Source: a virus (lineage: Duplodnaviria > Heunggongvirae > Uroviricota > Caudoviricetes). Taken from it: a stretch of DNA of 61,304 bases. The translations under genes and the position numbers were made by a program. How positions within the stretch are numbered: position 1 is the stretch's first letter; every line of letters begins with the position of its first letter. The notes beneath the pieces were generated by a model. That model worked only from the letters and a program-made list of their open reading frames with translations, was not told the origin of the DNA and ran no database searches. The DNA lies in IMG/VR virus record IMGVR_UViG_3300015155_000017; one strand, written 5' to 3'. Below are positions 26,859 to 35,292 of the stretch, in pieces.

Positions 26859-27126
26859 ATTACAGGTGCGCGTAGATGAGCTTGAAAAAGAGAACGCGAG
26901 CCTCAAAAAAATGCTGTCGCGGGCGGAAAGGGAATTATCAGGCAAATTATTGCCAGAAGAACTGCCACCAGCAGATATACCTGATCGAGTGTCCTGGTGG
27001 ATGAAGTATTTCCGTGCACCGTGGGAGGCGTTTTGGTGCTACGACCATCGCAGATGGTGTGATGAACTTGATAGCAATTTTCCCTACTTTGCGGAAGGGA
27101 ACACCTGCCCTCAATGCAGGGGATAG
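26842..27126 (+). CDS. coiled-coil / zinc-ribbon-like small protein (94 aa)
   Basis: GAGGTGG SD; CYDHRRWC...CPQC. Confidence 0.4.
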   Translation: MPTKAELQVRVDELEKENASLKKMLSRAERELSGKLLPEELPPADIPDRVSWWMKYFRAPWEAFWCYDHRRWCDELDSNFPYFAEGNTCPQCRG

Positions 27127-27461
27127 CATTTGACGAAATCGATCACCCTATCCTGAACTTCAGAAAGAAGGTCTTTTTCACGCGCCAGGACGTCAGGATA
27201 TTGACGTTCTGGCCTTACCAGATGCCGGAGCTTCCCATTAAGCAGAATGGCCTCAGAAAACACTTTTACGCTGTGCTTTATCCCCTCTGTTTCACTTTTC
27301 AGCGTCAAAATAAAGCGCAATTGCTTATTAGCCTGATTCGGATTCAATACACGAATTTGCAGTTCGTCTATGCTGTTCCGCAATGGGATTGATGCTACCA
27401 CACTGGTGCAGTCTCTGATTGTCTGAATTGAACGGCTAACATTGAGAACGTTATTGTGCAT
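27111..27461 (-). CDS. possible small protein (116 aa), uncertain
   Basis: Only sizeable ORF in the 27.1-27.5 kb gap, weak RBS; a plus-strand alternative exists. Confidence 0.25.
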   Translation of the reverse strand: MHNNVLNVSRSIQTIRDCTSVVASIPLRNSIDELQIRVLNPNQANKQLRFILTLKSETEGIKHSVKVFSEAILLNGKLRHLVRPERQYPDVLAREKDLLSEVQDRVIDFVKCYPLH

Positions 27462-27493
27462 GTGCCTGATCCACTAACTCCTGGAGGTTTCTT

Positions 27494-27745
27494 GTGTCAG
27501 ATCGAAATATAGCAGCTAAAAGCCAGGAAGAGCGAGACAAGGTGAACGTAGACCTTGCCGCCAGCGGCGTTGCTTACAAAGAACGGCTGAATATACCTGT
27601 GATTGCAGAGCAGGTGGCTCGTGAGCAACCGGAAAACCTGCGCGCCTATTTCATGGAACGGCTACGGCACTACCGGCAGTTAAGCCTCCAGTTGCCAAAA
27701 GGGAGCGATCCGGTGTATCAGAACGAGGATGCACCAAAAAAATAA
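27494..27745 (+). CDS. hot: DNA polymerase III theta subunit (HolE) homolog
   Basis: [43 protein letters not shown] aligns with HolE. Confidence 0.8.
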
Positions 27746-27830
27746 CGGCAAGATGGGGGAGAAATGTGATTAGCCCCCAGCGTGGCGCGCCTACAAACCC
27801 CGCTTTCACAAACTATGCCTTTTCAATGTA

Positions 27831-27850
27831 TACTGTATGAATAAACAGTA
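27831..27850 (+). promoter_or_regulatory. LexA (SOS) box
   Basis: TACTGTATGAATAAACAGTA = CTG-N10-CAG consensus, 18 bp upstream of humD. Confidence 0.8.
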
Positions 27851-27868
27851 TCATTGAGGTAAAACGCT

Positions 27869-28258
27869 ATGGGCTTCCCTTCTCCTGCGGCGGATTATGT
27901 TGAAAGCCGAATTTCTCTTGATCAGCAGATAATTAGACATCCTTCAGCGACCTACTTCATGCGGGCAGCTGATAGCCATCACCGTGAGGGAATATTGCAG
28001 GGTGCTTTGCTGGTGGTTGATTCCTCGCTTACTCCGGTTGATGGTTCTCTGCTTGTGTGCGCTATGGAGGGTGAATATCGCATAAAGAGATACAGGAAGT
28101 ATCCGCGCCAGCACCTGGAGGACTTAAGCACCGGGAAGAAAGAGGCGTTACCAGTAGATGACGATGGATACACGGGCAGTAATGCTGTTTTTGGTGTGAT
28201 CACTCATGTCATCAATGATGCCCGAAGTGGGGAATTTGATGATTGTCCGGTTATTTAA
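27869..28258 (+). CDS. humD: UmuD-like SOS mutagenesis protein homolog
   Basis: LexA/UmuD peptidase S24 fold; matches P1 HumD. Confidence 0.85.
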   Translation: MGFPSPAADYVESRISLDQQIIRHPSATYFMRAADSHHREGILQGALLVVDSSLTPVDGSLLVCAMEGEYRIKRYRKYPRQHLEDLSTGKKEALPVDDDGYTGSNAVFGVITHVINDARSGEFDDCPVI

Positions 28259-28330
28259 GCTGCAAAGTGCTGGTGCTTTATGCCTGTGAAGTTTATAATT
28301 GTGTACACATAACGAGTACACGAGGTGTTT

Positions 28331-28552
28331 ATGCAATCCATTAACTTCCGTACCGCGCGTGGCAACCTTTCTGAAGTGCTCAACAATGTTGAAGCCGGGG
28401 AAGAGGTTGAAATCACCCGCAGAGGCCGTGAGCCAGCAGTAATTGTCAGCAAGGCTACTTTCGAAGCCTACAAAAAAGCGGCGCTGGATGCTGAATTTGC
28501 ATCCCTGTTTGACACCCTGGACTCCACCAACAAGGAACTGGTTAACCGATAA
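28331..28552 (+). CDS. phd: Phd antitoxin (73 aa)
   Basis: [32 protein letters not shown]... matches P1 Phd as I recall it. Confidence 0.9.
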
Positions 28553-28932
28553 TGAGACATATATCACCGGAAGAACTTGTTGCGCTTCATGATGCGAATA
28601 TAAGCCGCTACGGCGGCCTGCCGGGAATGTCTGATCCGGGTAGGGCAGAGGCCATTATCGGGAGAGTTCAGGCCAGAGTTGCCTACGAAGAGATCACCGA
28701 CCTTTTCGAAGTCTCCGCCACCTACCTGGTGGCTACAGCGAGAGGGCATATATTCAATGATGCCAATAAGCGTACCGCGCTAAACAGTGCGCTGCTATTT
28801 CTACGCCGTAACGGGGTGCAGGTATTTGATTCACCTGAACTGGCAGACCTTACCGTAGGCGCTGCGACTGGCGAGATATCTGTATCTTCTGTCGCCGACA
28901 CGTTACGTAGATTGTATGGTTCTGCGGAGTAG
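28552..28932 (+). CDS. doc: Doc toxin, Fic-fold kinase (126 aa)
   Basis: [25 protein letters not shown]...[11 protein letters not shown]; TAATGA coupling to phd. Confidence 0.9.
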
Positions 28933-28936
28933 ATTA

Positions 28937-29116
28937 ATGGCACGTAAATACAACAAGTTGTCCCGTGAAGCGTTAAAGATGCTTCTTGATGGCGTGAGCC
29001 GCCGCAAGGTAAAGCAATACCTGGTTGGTAAGCAAATTGGAGTCAGGACCGCTATTGCTGTGTTATGCCGTCAGGAAATGGTTGTGCTTAAACAGAGAAT
29101 GCCGGGCAGCAGATAA
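28937..29116 (+). CDS. pdcA: small protein downstream of doc (59 aa)
   Basis: GGAG SD before ATG 28937; symbol from P1 position only. Confidence 0.4.
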   Translation: MARKYNKLSREALKMLLDGVSRRKVKQYLVGKQIGVRTAIAVLCRQEMVVLKQRMPGSR

Positions 29117-29143
29117 AGCCCAATCAGTGATTAAAGGTGTGAT

Positions 29144-30187
29144 GTGAAAGCCGTAATTACTCCCTTTGTACAGAAAGAGCTTGGCCTCGCCACGTTCAAA
29201 GTGGATCAGGAGGTCAGAAAGCTGGTGGAGGCTGGCCGTAAATTTATTATGGAGCCGGTGCCGCGTGAGTTAATCGAGCACATGGAAGACGGCCTCGTTG
29301 TTACCGAGCAAACCATGGCAACAAATGAGGCGTTGCAGCCGTTTTTTAACAGCGATGAACTGTTTCGCCGTATTGGTGGAATTGACGCGCTGGTGGCGTG
29401 GTTGCGTAGGAAAGAGGGTCAATGCCAGGCCGCAGATCGTAGTTGGTGTGACAACCATATTGTCCACGCTGAACGAGACAATAGCGCGGTGTTGTTGTGC
29501 TGGCATCACGATAACCATTACCGGATGCGTGGTTTTAATGAGCTGAAAGAAACGCTGCACAATAATCGCGTTAACTGGATACTGGATGTCGCCCGTCAGG
29601 AAATGGGCCTTTCAAATAGCCATGATTTAAGTATTCAGGAGCTGTGCTGGTGGGCTTTCATGCGCAACATGATGCACCTGATGCCGGAAGAAGTCTGCCG
29701 CATATCAATAAATAAGATGAAGGCTACTCCGCAGGATAGCGGACCTCTGAAAGAGGCGGATATTCGCCCGTATGACGATCGCGCTACAGCATATGTTCAG
29801 ATGATGGAAGAACGCGCCGCGCCGATGCGTGCAAAAGTATGCCCTGTGGATGTTGACGCCGACCCTGGCATGGCGCATTTCAAAATACCAAAACTTCAAT
29901 CGCTAAAATTGCCCGAGTACATGGATTTTGTGGCTTCCCGTCCATGCTGTGGCTGTGGAGCTGCGGGAGCTGGCGCTCACATTACGCCTTATATCGTTCG
30001 TCATAGTCGATTATGCGCGCATGACATTTATGCTATTCCTCTGTGCCAGTCATGCCAGCGTGATATTGAGCGTGACCGCGATAATTGGGAGAAGACGCAC
30101 GGTAGGCTGGCGATGCATCAACGATTGTTCTTTGATTACGCGCTTGGAGTCGGCGCTATCACAAGTCATTCGTCGAGCGTTAGATAA
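29144..30187 (+). CDS. pdcB: hypothetical protein (347 aa)
   Basis: AAAGGTG SD before GTG; Cys/His-rich; symbol from P1 position. Confidence 0.5.
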
Positions 30188-35069: not shown

Positions 35070-35103
35070 ATAACTTCGTATAGCATACATTATACGAAGT
35101 TAT
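35070..35103 (+). other. loxP site-specific recombination site
   Basis: Exact ATAACTTCGTATAGCATACATTATACGAAGTTAT. Confidence 0.98.
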
Positions 35104-35292
35104 CTTAAGGGTTATTGAACATGATCAATTTACCTGTAAATCCATACAGTTCAATACCTTATCAGGTCAAATAGTGATCACTTGATCATTTGATCAAGGT
35201 TGCGCTACGTAAAATCTGCGAAATGTTGGCAGTGTTAGTGCTCCAGATTTCGCGTAGCGCACTTAGCACCACCAATCAATCAGAGGTGAAAA

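What the first reader, a model, noticed from the sequence alone, without database searches (positions are those of the whole stretch)
27831..28932. SOS-controlled humD followed by the phd-doc addiction module
A textbook LexA box (CTG-N10-CAG) lies 18 bp upstream of humD, which is followed by the Phd antitoxin and Doc toxin with a TAATGA-coupled junction. This wires host SOS signalling and plasmid-style post-segregational killing into the prophage.
Basis: partly seen in the sequence, partly recalled or inferred. Interest (0 to 1): 0.35.

Follow-up and report, generated by a model that had tools for sequence, protein, structure and literature searches.

The report
Phage P1 humD and phd-doc locus
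This is the well-known phage P1 stretch where a DNA-damage-inducible repair gene (humD) sits next to the classic Phd/Doc plasmid-addiction toxin-antitoxin pair; it is found almost unchanged in hundreds of E. coli plasmids, so it is ordinary.

Summary
A strong LexA box (TACTGTATGAATAAACAGTA, 27831-27850) lies 18 bp before humD (27869-28258). phd (28331-28552) and doc (28552-28932) follow, joined by a TAATG overlap.

The window is a P1-like phage-plasmid. Phd is identical to P1 Phd, Doc differs at one residue and HumD at two. The P1 GenBank record already annotates this LexA site, humD, Pphd, phd and doc.

New here is comparative support. All 84 P1-like loci keep CTG-N10-CAG at the same place while the centre of the box varies. 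Six unrelated phages with humD homologues also carry a LexA box upstream.

humD and phd-doc are two independent mosaic modules, not one SOS operon:
- phd-doc has its own promoter region, identical to P1.
- About two thirds of plasmids carrying this cassette lack humD.
- humD occurs elsewhere without phd-doc.
- Phage D6 has a gene inserted between them.

The only difference from reference P1 is that the divergent lxr gene is missing and hot lies directly upstream. About half of the relatives share this arrangement.

Verdict: already known, low interest. No terminator separates humD from phd, so SOS read-through into phd-doc is not excluded but is unsupported.

The parts
27494..27745 (+). hot, a homologue of the DNA polymerase III theta subunit. 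It is context only. It lies directly upstream of humD here, where reference P1 has the divergent lxr gene.
   Evidence: Pfam PF06440 at E 2.8e-33. P1 and RCS47 annotations. Alignment with P1 Hot.
27805..27834 (+). Predicted sigma-70 promoter of humD, TTCACA-18-TATACT. The -10 hexamer shares 4 nt with the LexA box.
   Evidence: It is the only promoter-like site in 27400-29200 and matches 10 of 12 positions. TATACT is present in 82 of 83 P1-like upstream sequences. A TT(G/T)CAC element sits at a fixed position in three otherwise different upstream contexts. Use of this promoter is inferred, not shown.
27831..27850 (.). LexA (SOS) box TACTGTATGAATAAACAGTA.
   Evidence: The homologous site is annotated as a LexA binding site in P1 AF234172. 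CTG and CAG are invariant in 84/84 relatives while the centre varies. A box is also present upstream of humD homologues in Cyrano, N15, phiKO2, HK140, HK639 and BTP1.
27856..27859 (+). Shine-Dalgarno GAGG of humD, 9 nt before the ATG.
   Evidence: Read from the sequence.
27869..28258 (+). humD, a stand-alone, already-shortened UmuD' homologue of 129 aa.
   Evidence: NCBIfam NF051876 HumD equivalog at 220 bits over the full length. Pfam Peptidase_S24. PDB UmuD' 1umu at E 4.5e-23, with HumD Gly2 aligned to UmuD Gly25. Two substitutions relative to P1 HumD, L21I and C103G.
28271..28299 (+). Pphd, the phd-doc promoter. The -35 is TGGTGC at 28271-28276 and the -10 is TATAAT at 28294-28299.
   Evidence: Coordinates transferred from the P1 record's 'sigma 70 promoter Pphd'. 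The whole 72-bp humD-phd spacer is identical to P1.
28299..28326 (.). Palindrome-containing stretch (TTGTGTACACA ... GAGTACACGAGG) between the -10 and the phd start. This is the presumed Phd/Doc operator region.
   Evidence: The sequence is identical to P1. The operator assignment rests on my recollection of the P1 literature and on the general description of Phd binding its operator in PMC4803016. It was not tested here.
28331..28552 (+). phd, the antitoxin (73 aa).
   Evidence: 73/73 identical to P1 Phd, PDB 3hry and 3k33. Pfam PF02604 and NCBIfam TIGR01552.
28552..28932 (+). doc, the toxin (126 aa). It is a Fic-fold kinase with the motif HIFNDANKR at residues 66-74.
   Evidence: 125/126 identical to P1 Doc, PDB 3k33, with the single change I10V. 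Pfam PF02661 and NCBIfam TIGR01550.
28937..29116 (+). pdcA, a small ORF of unknown function that travels with the phd-doc cassette.
   Evidence: P1, 813R1 and RCS47 annotations. An ORF in the same position follows doc on an IncF plasmid and in phi456, where homology runs from window 28249 to 29421 or beyond. It has no Pfam or NCBIfam family.

Best explanation
The region holds two neighbouring but independent and already characterised modules of a P1-family phage-plasmid.

Module 1 (about 27800-28258) is a promoter whose -10 overlaps a LexA box, followed by humD. In undamaged cells host LexA sits on the box and blocks RNA polymerase. When DNA damage activates RecA and LexA cleaves itself, humD is transcribed. 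HumD is a UmuD' look-alike that starts exactly at the position where UmuD is normally cut. It therefore needs no RecA-dependent processing and can team up with the host's UmuC to support translesion synthesis.

Module 2 (about 28249-29116 and beyond) is the phd-doc operon with its own promoter and operator. Phd and Doc are made together through the TAATG overlap. Phd neutralises Doc and, together with Doc, represses Pphd. Phd is unstable (ClpXP). A cell that loses the plasmid prophage therefore runs out of Phd, and Doc phosphorylates EF-Tu and stops translation, which is post-segregational killing.

Shown here: the sequences, identities, module boundaries and conservation. Taken from the literature on P1: the HumD, Phd and Doc activities. 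Inferred: LexA binding and which promoter is used.
For: Identity of the parts:
- Megablast gives 97.6-99.4% identity to P1, P7, RCS47 and 813R1.
- The P1 record annotates the LexA site, humD, Pphd, phd and doc in this order.
- Phd is 73/73 and Doc 125/126 identical to the crystallised P1 proteins.
- HumD matches the NCBIfam HumD equivalog and aligns to UmuD' from its first residue.

LexA box:
- It is the unique near-consensus match in 61 kb, with 0 of 100 shuffles giving any.
- It overlaps the only promoter-like site in the region.
- It is conserved in 84/84 P1-like loci, with the variable positions confined to outside CTG and CAG.
- It is present upstream of 62-93% identical humD homologues in six unrelated phages whose flanks do not align. 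In phiKO2 the site is annotated as a LexA site.

Independence of the modules:
- The humD-phd spacer with Pphd is identical to P1.
- Of 1427 plasmid records with a match, only 475 cover 80% or more of the query. Most of the others carry phd-doc only, starting at window 28249-28255. About 190 carry humD only, at 80-90% identity.
- An IncF plasmid and phage phi456 have phd-doc-pdcA without humD.
- D6 has an extra ORF between humD and phd.
- Cyrano, N15, phiKO2, HK140, HK639 and BTP1 have humD without phd-doc.

Mechanism of Phd/Doc: review PMC4803016.
Against: No experiment on LexA binding at this site was found in the held literature. The P1 genome paper and the HumD paper could not be read. The P1 record places its predicted PhumD about 480 bp upstream inside lxr, not at the box, so the promoter I propose differs from that annotation. 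No terminator or stable hairpin separates humD from phd, so the two modules may not be fully insulated transcriptionally. I did not search the window for a umuC-like gene; only the genes flanking humD were checked. The need for host UmuC rests on my knowledge of the P1 literature.
Confidence: 0.9

Rival explanations
1. humD, phd and doc form one SOS-controlled transcription unit. After LexA cleavage, transcripts from the humD promoter run through the 72-bp spacer into phd-doc, so DNA damage changes toxin-antitoxin levels.
For: The genes are on the same strand with a 72-bp gap. There is no terminator-like site. The spacer folds no better than shuffled sequence, z = +1.26. In N15 and phiKO2 the humD homologue is followed by an annotated terminator, whereas here it is not.
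Against: phd-doc has its own promoter and operator region, identical to P1. The cassette works as a unit on hundreds of plasmids without humD. D6 tolerates a 140-aa ORF inserted between the two. The mosaic boundary falls exactly at the humD stop. Read-through would raise Phd and Doc together because they are translationally coupled, so a functional effect is not obvious.
Confidence: 0.12
2. The CTG-N10-CAG motif is a chance palindrome or a relic, and humD is expressed constitutively or from an upstream promoter such as read-through from hot.
For: LexA binding has not been measured. The P1 record's predicted PhumD lies elsewhere. No terminator was found between hot and humD.
Against: 0 of 100 shuffles give a match with 3 or fewer mismatches. 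CTG and CAG are invariant in 84/84 relatives while 9 other box positions vary. Boxes occur at 14-17 bp from the start codon in Cyrano, N15, HK639 and BTP1, at 44 bp in phiKO2, and further upstream at the head of a two-gene unit in HK140, with otherwise unrelated flanks.
Confidence: 0.03
3. HumD's main role is not mutagenic translesion synthesis. Instead it modulates host RecA or UmuD/UmuC in the phage's interest, for example by dampening recombination or titrating UmuC.
For: humD has no umuC partner next to it; its flanks are hot and phd. Stand-alone humD genes sit in many temperate phages next to dinI-like genes. The Ser36/Lys73 dyad positions are kept although no cleavage is needed.
Against: From my knowledge of McLenigan et al. 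1999, which I could not read here, HumD complements UmuD' for mutagenesis and binds UmuC and RecA filaments. A CRISPRi screen found humD non-essential for P1 lytic growth (PMC10695390), which does not discriminate between the two roles.
Confidence: 0.1

Closest known systems
Bacteriophage P1 lxr-humD-phd-doc-pdcA region (GenBank AF234172 / NC_005856, positions about 86.8-88.8 kb)
   Same: The LexA box is in the same position, 18-19 bp before humD. Gene order is the same. The Pphd spacer is identical, Phd is identical, Doc differs at 1 of 126 residues and HumD at 2 of 129. DNA identity from window 27821 onward is 97.6%.
   Different: The divergent lxr gene, whose regulatory region shares the LexA site in P1, is absent, and hot lies 123 bp upstream instead. 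The box centre differs at two positions (ATGAATAAA versus ATAAATGAA). The predicted -10 is TATACT here and TGTACT in the lab P1 sequence.
P1-like phage-plasmids RCS47 and vB_EcoM-813R1, and E. coli plasmids such as NC_017653 (O55:H7 RM12579)
   Same: They share the hot-humD-phd-doc arrangement without lxr. Identity across the region is 98.3-100%.
   Different: Nothing of note. Several records are 100% identical over 27746-28932.
LexA-controlled stand-alone umuD' homologues of N15, phiKO2, HK639, HK140, BTP1 and Cyrano
   Same: Each has a pre-shortened UmuD'-like gene with a consensus LexA box just upstream. In phiKO2 the box is annotated and shared with a divergent dinI, much as P1 shares its box with lxr.
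   Different: Protein identity is 62-93%. None is followed by phd-doc; partition genes, an integrase or a terminator follow instead.
E. coli umuDC operon
   Same: It is LexA-repressed with the SOS box at the promoter, and the S24-family UmuD fold is shared. The umuDC regulation is from established knowledge.
   Different: UmuD needs RecA-mediated removal of 24 N-terminal residues and is co-transcribed with umuC. HumD starts at the cleavage point and has no umuC next to it.
phd-doc(-pdcA) cassettes on IncF and other conjugative plasmids
   Same: They are about 98% identical from window 28249 onward and include the promoter region.
   Different: They have no humD or LexA box upstream. IS26 and resistance genes or hsd genes are the neighbours.

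Membership tests
E. coli-type LexA (SOS) box | 16-bp palindromic core CTGT-N8-ACAG with an A/T-rich centre, close to the 20-mer consensus TACTGTATATATATACAGTA | tested here: met
   TACTGTATGAATAAACAGTA has 3 central mismatches, and 7 of the 8 spacer bases are A or T. It is the unique match in the window, with 0 of 100 shuffles giving any.
E. coli-type LexA (SOS) box | Position overlapping or next to the promoter of the regulated gene | tested here: met
   The box overlaps the -10 of the only promoter-like site, TTCACA-18-TATACT at 27805-27834. Promoter use itself is inferred.
E. coli-type LexA (SOS) box | Conservation of the contact bases across orthologous loci | tested here: met
   84/84 P1-like loci keep CTG and CAG while other box positions vary. 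Six distant phage humD loci also have a box.
E. coli-type LexA (SOS) box | LexA binding and damage-inducible expression | not testable with these tools
   This needs EMSA or footprinting and expression assays. Only the P1 record's annotation is available.
HumD family (stand-alone UmuD'-like protein) | Full-length match to the family model above its cut-off | tested here: met
   NCBIfam NF051876 equivalog: 220.3 bits against a cut-off of 120, residues 1-129 of 129.
HumD family (stand-alone UmuD'-like protein) | Lacks the N-terminal pro-segment and starts at the UmuD Cys24/Gly25 cleavage point | tested here: met
   HumD residues 2-116 align to UmuD residues 25-136 (8gmt_B) and to UmuD' from its residue 1 (1umu).
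HumD family (stand-alone UmuD'-like protein) | No cognate umuC in the same operon | tested here: met
   The flanking genes are hot and phd. The whole window was not searched for umuC.
HumD family (stand-alone UmuD'-like protein) | Complements UmuD' and binds UmuC and RecA filaments | not testable with these tools
   This was reported for P1 HumD (McLenigan et al. 1999, cited in PMC4713147). The paper itself is not held.
Phd-Doc type II toxin-antitoxin system | Phd/YefM-fold antitoxin encoded first, with its stop overlapping the toxin start | tested here: met
   Pfam PF02604 and NCBIfam TIGR01552 match. Phd is 73/73 identical to P1 Phd. The TAATG overlap is at 28550-28554.
Phd-Doc type II toxin-antitoxin system | Doc toxin with a Fic fold and the motif HxFx(D/N)(A/G)NKR | tested here: met
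   Pfam PF02661 and NCBIfam TIGR01550 match. Doc is 125/126 identical to P1 Doc (3k33). HIFNDANKR is at residues 66-74.
Phd-Doc type II toxin-antitoxin system | Own autoregulated promoter and operator upstream of phd | tested here: met
   The 72-bp spacer is identical to P1, where Pphd is annotated. Autoregulation itself is taken from the literature (PMC4803016).
Phd-Doc type II toxin-antitoxin system | Doc toxicity, neutralisation by Phd, and killing on plasmid loss | not testable with these tools
   This was shown for the P1 proteins in the literature (Lehnherr 1993 and others, summarised in PMC4803016). It is expected to hold for a 1-residue variant.

The most novel reading that the evidence does not exclude
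humD is followed by no terminator, unlike its homologues in N15 and phiKO2. SOS-induced transcription from the humD promoter could therefore read through Pphd. That would transiently override Phd/Doc autorepression, coupling DNA damage to toxin-antitoxin dosage in P1-type lysogens.
Probability: 0.1. Interest if true: 0.4.

Novelty: already known. Interest (0 to 1): 0.07.

Why it matters
It matters little as a discovery. The locus is annotated in the P1 reference genome, and its proteins have been studied genetically, biochemically and structurally. Sequence covering at least 80% of the region occurs in 484 of 5426 complete E. coli genomes. The useful by-products are three. The humD LexA box is well supported by conservation. 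The LexA-box-plus-humD unit and the phd-doc(-pdcA) unit are separate mosaic modules with sharp boundaries. The lxr-less arrangement is a common natural variant, not a peculiarity of this window.

Tried and rejected
- I tried to read the two primary papers, McLenigan et al. 1999 (PMC94175) and Lobocka et al. 2004 (PMC523184). Neither is held, so statements about HumD biochemistry rest on citations and my own knowledge.
- I looked for a terminator or stable hairpin between humD and phd and between hot and humD. None was found. The only terminator-like hit lies inside doc (28776-28791) and is at chance level.
- I looked for the P1 late promoter LPhot upstream of hot. Its -22 box is absent there.
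- An Rfam scan of the whole window found only three tRNAs.
- I considered a third CTGT-N8-ACAG at 4297-4312 as a LexA site. I rejected it as chance because the centre is GC-rich and 0.62 such matches are expected.
- I considered that megablast homology to P1 starting at 27821 marks a recombination joint right at the box. I rejected this because alignment shows weaker similarity continuing about 25 bp further upstream, including the -35-like TT(G/T)CAC.
- I did not compute a formal heterology index for the box, because I do not hold the published matrix.

Full report
**Observation**

Reading the sequence confirms every element of the finding.
- The 20-mer TACTGTATGAATAAACAGTA lies at 27831-27850, with CTG at 27833-27835 and CAG at 27846-27848.
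- It is followed after 18 bp by an ATG at 27869. A GAGG Shine-Dalgarno sits 9 nt before that ATG.
- The ORF 27869-28258 encodes 129 aa.
- After a 72-bp spacer come a 73-aa ORF (28331-28552) and a 126-aa ORF (28552-28932).
- Their junction reads GATAATGAGA, so the TAA stop and the ATG start share one A.

The box has three mismatches to the consensus TACTGTATATATATACAGTA, all in the variable centre. It is the only match with 3 or fewer mismatches in the 61-kb window, and none of 100 dinucleotide-preserving shuffles produced one. The looser pattern CTGT-N8-ACAG occurs three times against 0.62 expected.

**What it is**

The window is a P1-family phage-plasmid.
- The 1.45 kb around the finding is 99.4% identical to phage vB_EcoM-813R1 and 98.3% to RCS47. 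From window 27821 onward it is 97.6% identical to P1 and P7.
- The rest of the window matches P1, P7 and SJ46 at about 98%.
- The P1 GenBank record (AF234172) annotates, in the same order and spacing, a 'LexA binding site in the regulatory region of lxr and humD', then humD, the sigma-70 promoter Pphd, phd, doc and pdcA.

The proteins match as follows.
- The 129-aa protein hits the NCBIfam equivalog 'HumD family translesion DNA polymerase' over its full length, at 220 bits against a cut-off of 120. It also hits Pfam Peptidase_S24.
- Against solved structures it aligns to UmuD' (1umu, E 4.5e-23). HumD Gly2 aligns with UmuD Gly25, the first residue left after RecA-mediated cleavage. HumD is therefore born already 'activated'.
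- The positions of the UmuD Ser60/Lys97 dyad are kept as Ser36 and Lys73.
- It differs from P1 HumD at two residues, L21I and C103G.
- Phd is 73/73 identical to crystallised P1 Phd.
- Doc is 125/126 identical to P1 Doc (I10V) and keeps the Fic-type motif HIFNDANKR.

**Is the LexA box real?**

Conservation says yes. I fetched 80 IMG/VR loci encoding close HumD relatives and added P1, 813R1, RCS47 and the window.
- All 84 have CTG-N10-CAG, with the 20-mer ending 18 or 19 bp before the ATG.
- Fourteen different box sequences occur. They vary at nine positions, but never in CTG or CAG.

More telling are phage genomes that carry 62-93% identical HumD homologues in otherwise unrelated contexts. Cyrano, N15, phiKO2, HK140, HK639 and BTP1 each have a near-consensus LexA box upstream.
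- The box lies 14-17 bp from the start codon in Cyrano, N15, HK639 and BTP1.
- It lies 44 bp away in phiKO2.
- In HK140 it lies further upstream, ahead of a two-gene unit.
- In phiKO2 the site is annotated as a LexA site shared with a divergent dinI.

The only promoter-like site in 27400-29200 is TTCACA-18-TATACT at 27805-27834, and its -10 shares four bases with the box. TATACT is present in 82 of 83 P1-like sequences. A TT(G/T)CAC element sits at a fixed distance in three different upstream contexts. The simplest mechanism is promoter occlusion by LexA. This is inferred, because I found no binding experiment in the held literature and the two primary P1 papers could not be read.

**One unit or two?**

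The evidence points to two independent modules.
- The 72-bp humD-phd spacer, which holds Pphd and the palindromes downstream of its -10, is identical to P1.
- Of 1427 plasmid records with a match to 27746-28932, only 475 cover 80% or more. In an evenly spaced sample of the ranking, about half carry only the part from query 504-510 onward (window 28249-28255), that is phd-doc. About an eighth carry only the LexA box plus humD, at about 86% identity.
- An IncF conjugative plasmid and the P1-type phage phi456 have phd-doc-pdcA, and part of pdcB, without humD. Homology starts at window 28249.
- Phage D6 has a 140-aa ORF inserted between humD and phd. Its homology resumes at 28294, the -10 of Pphd.
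- None of the six distant phage humD loci has phd-doc downstream. In N15 and phiKO2 an annotated terminator follows the humD homologue.

The humD-phd-doc adjacency is therefore a mosaic juxtaposition typical of P1-like elements, not an obligatory SOS-toxin circuit. Here no terminator-like site or stable hairpin lies between humD and phd: the promoter/terminator scan found none, and the spacer folds no better than shuffled sequence, z = +1.26. Some read-through after SOS induction cannot be excluded. I rate a functional role for it at about 10%.

**Mechanism**

Steps shown here and steps inferred are kept apart.
- Shown here: the sequences, protein identities, module boundaries and conservation.
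- From the literature on P1: Phd binds its operator and, with Doc, regulates the operon by conditional cooperativity. Doc phosphorylates EF-Tu at Thr382. Phd is a ClpXP substrate. The pair causes death on curing of the plasmid prophage (review PMC4803016).
- From the literature on HumD: it is reported to complement UmuD' (McLenigan et al. 1999, cited; not read).
- From a CRISPRi screen: lxr, humD, phd and doc are non-essential for P1 lytic growth (PMC10695390).
- Inferred: LexA binds 27831-27850 and represses a promoter whose -10 is TATACT, and HumD uses the host's UmuC.

**Differences from reference P1**

In P1 the LexA site lies between the divergent lxr ('LexA regulated function') and humD. 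Here lxr is absent and hot ends 123 bp upstream of humD. This is not unusual. Of the 84 loci, 41 have hot and no lxr, 37 have lxr-like sequence, and 6 have neither within the flank. RCS47, 813R1 and D6 share the arrangement.

In complete E. coli genomes, 1399 of 5426 hold some part of the region and 484 hold at least 80% of it. Several are 100% identical. A survey of P1-like phage-plasmids already lists the pmgT-to-humD stretch (including hot and lxr) among eight highly variable regions and humD-phd-doc as a shared cluster (PMC9603915).

**Verdict**

Everything is already known, so interest is low.

Noticed in passing
window 35070-35151: A perfect loxP site (ATAACTTCGTATAGCATACATTATACGAAGTTAT, 35070-35103) is followed by a second LexA box, ACCTGTAAATCCATACAGTT, at 35132-35151. 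The box is identical to the LexA site that the P1 record places over promoter P2coi. This is the link usually cited between SOS and P1 induction through the Coi anti-repressor.
   Followed up: yes
L001 (P1 AF234172) 2505-2512, compared with window 27829-27834: The lab P1 sequence is the only one of 83 P1-like sequences with TGTACT instead of TATACT in the predicted -10 that overlaps the humD LexA box. If this promoter is real, lab P1 carries a down-mutation. That might relate to reports that HumD is poorly expressed from P1 (my recollection of McLenigan et al. 1999).
   Followed up: partly
window 27111-27745: The region upstream of humD differs from P1. upfM, upfN, upfO and lxr are missing. 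A 116-aa ORF on the minus strand (27111-27461) has no NCBIfam family but is conserved in RCS47 (p0100) and D6 (orf106). hot starts at a GTG with a different N-terminus. The P1 late promoter LPhot is not found upstream of it.
   Followed up: partly
window 28249-29421; L094 2501-3673; L093 1501-2859: The mobile phd-doc cassette shared with IncF plasmids and phi456 starts within the last 10 nt of humD. It extends through the small ORF pdcA into the 5' part of pdcB, so pdcA (unknown function) travels with the toxin-antitoxin pair.
   Followed up: partly
L092 (phage D6) 1220-1642: D6 has a 140-aa hypothetical gene (orf109) inserted between humD and phd, and its hot gene is truncated to 48 aa.
   Followed up: no
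window 4917-5070 and 6502-6577: Three tRNA genes are present: Asn(GTT), Thr(TGT) and one with a CAT anticodon called Met by ARAGORN.
   Followed up: no
window 4297-4312: A third CTGT-N8-ACAG match, CTGTTAGCCGCGACAG, has a GC-rich centre. It is consistent with the roughly 0.6 chance matches expected per window and is unlikely to be a LexA site.
   Followed up: no
window 29144-30187: pdcB (347 aa) carries Pfam DUF968 at E 8.9e-50. Its function is unknown.
   Followed up: no
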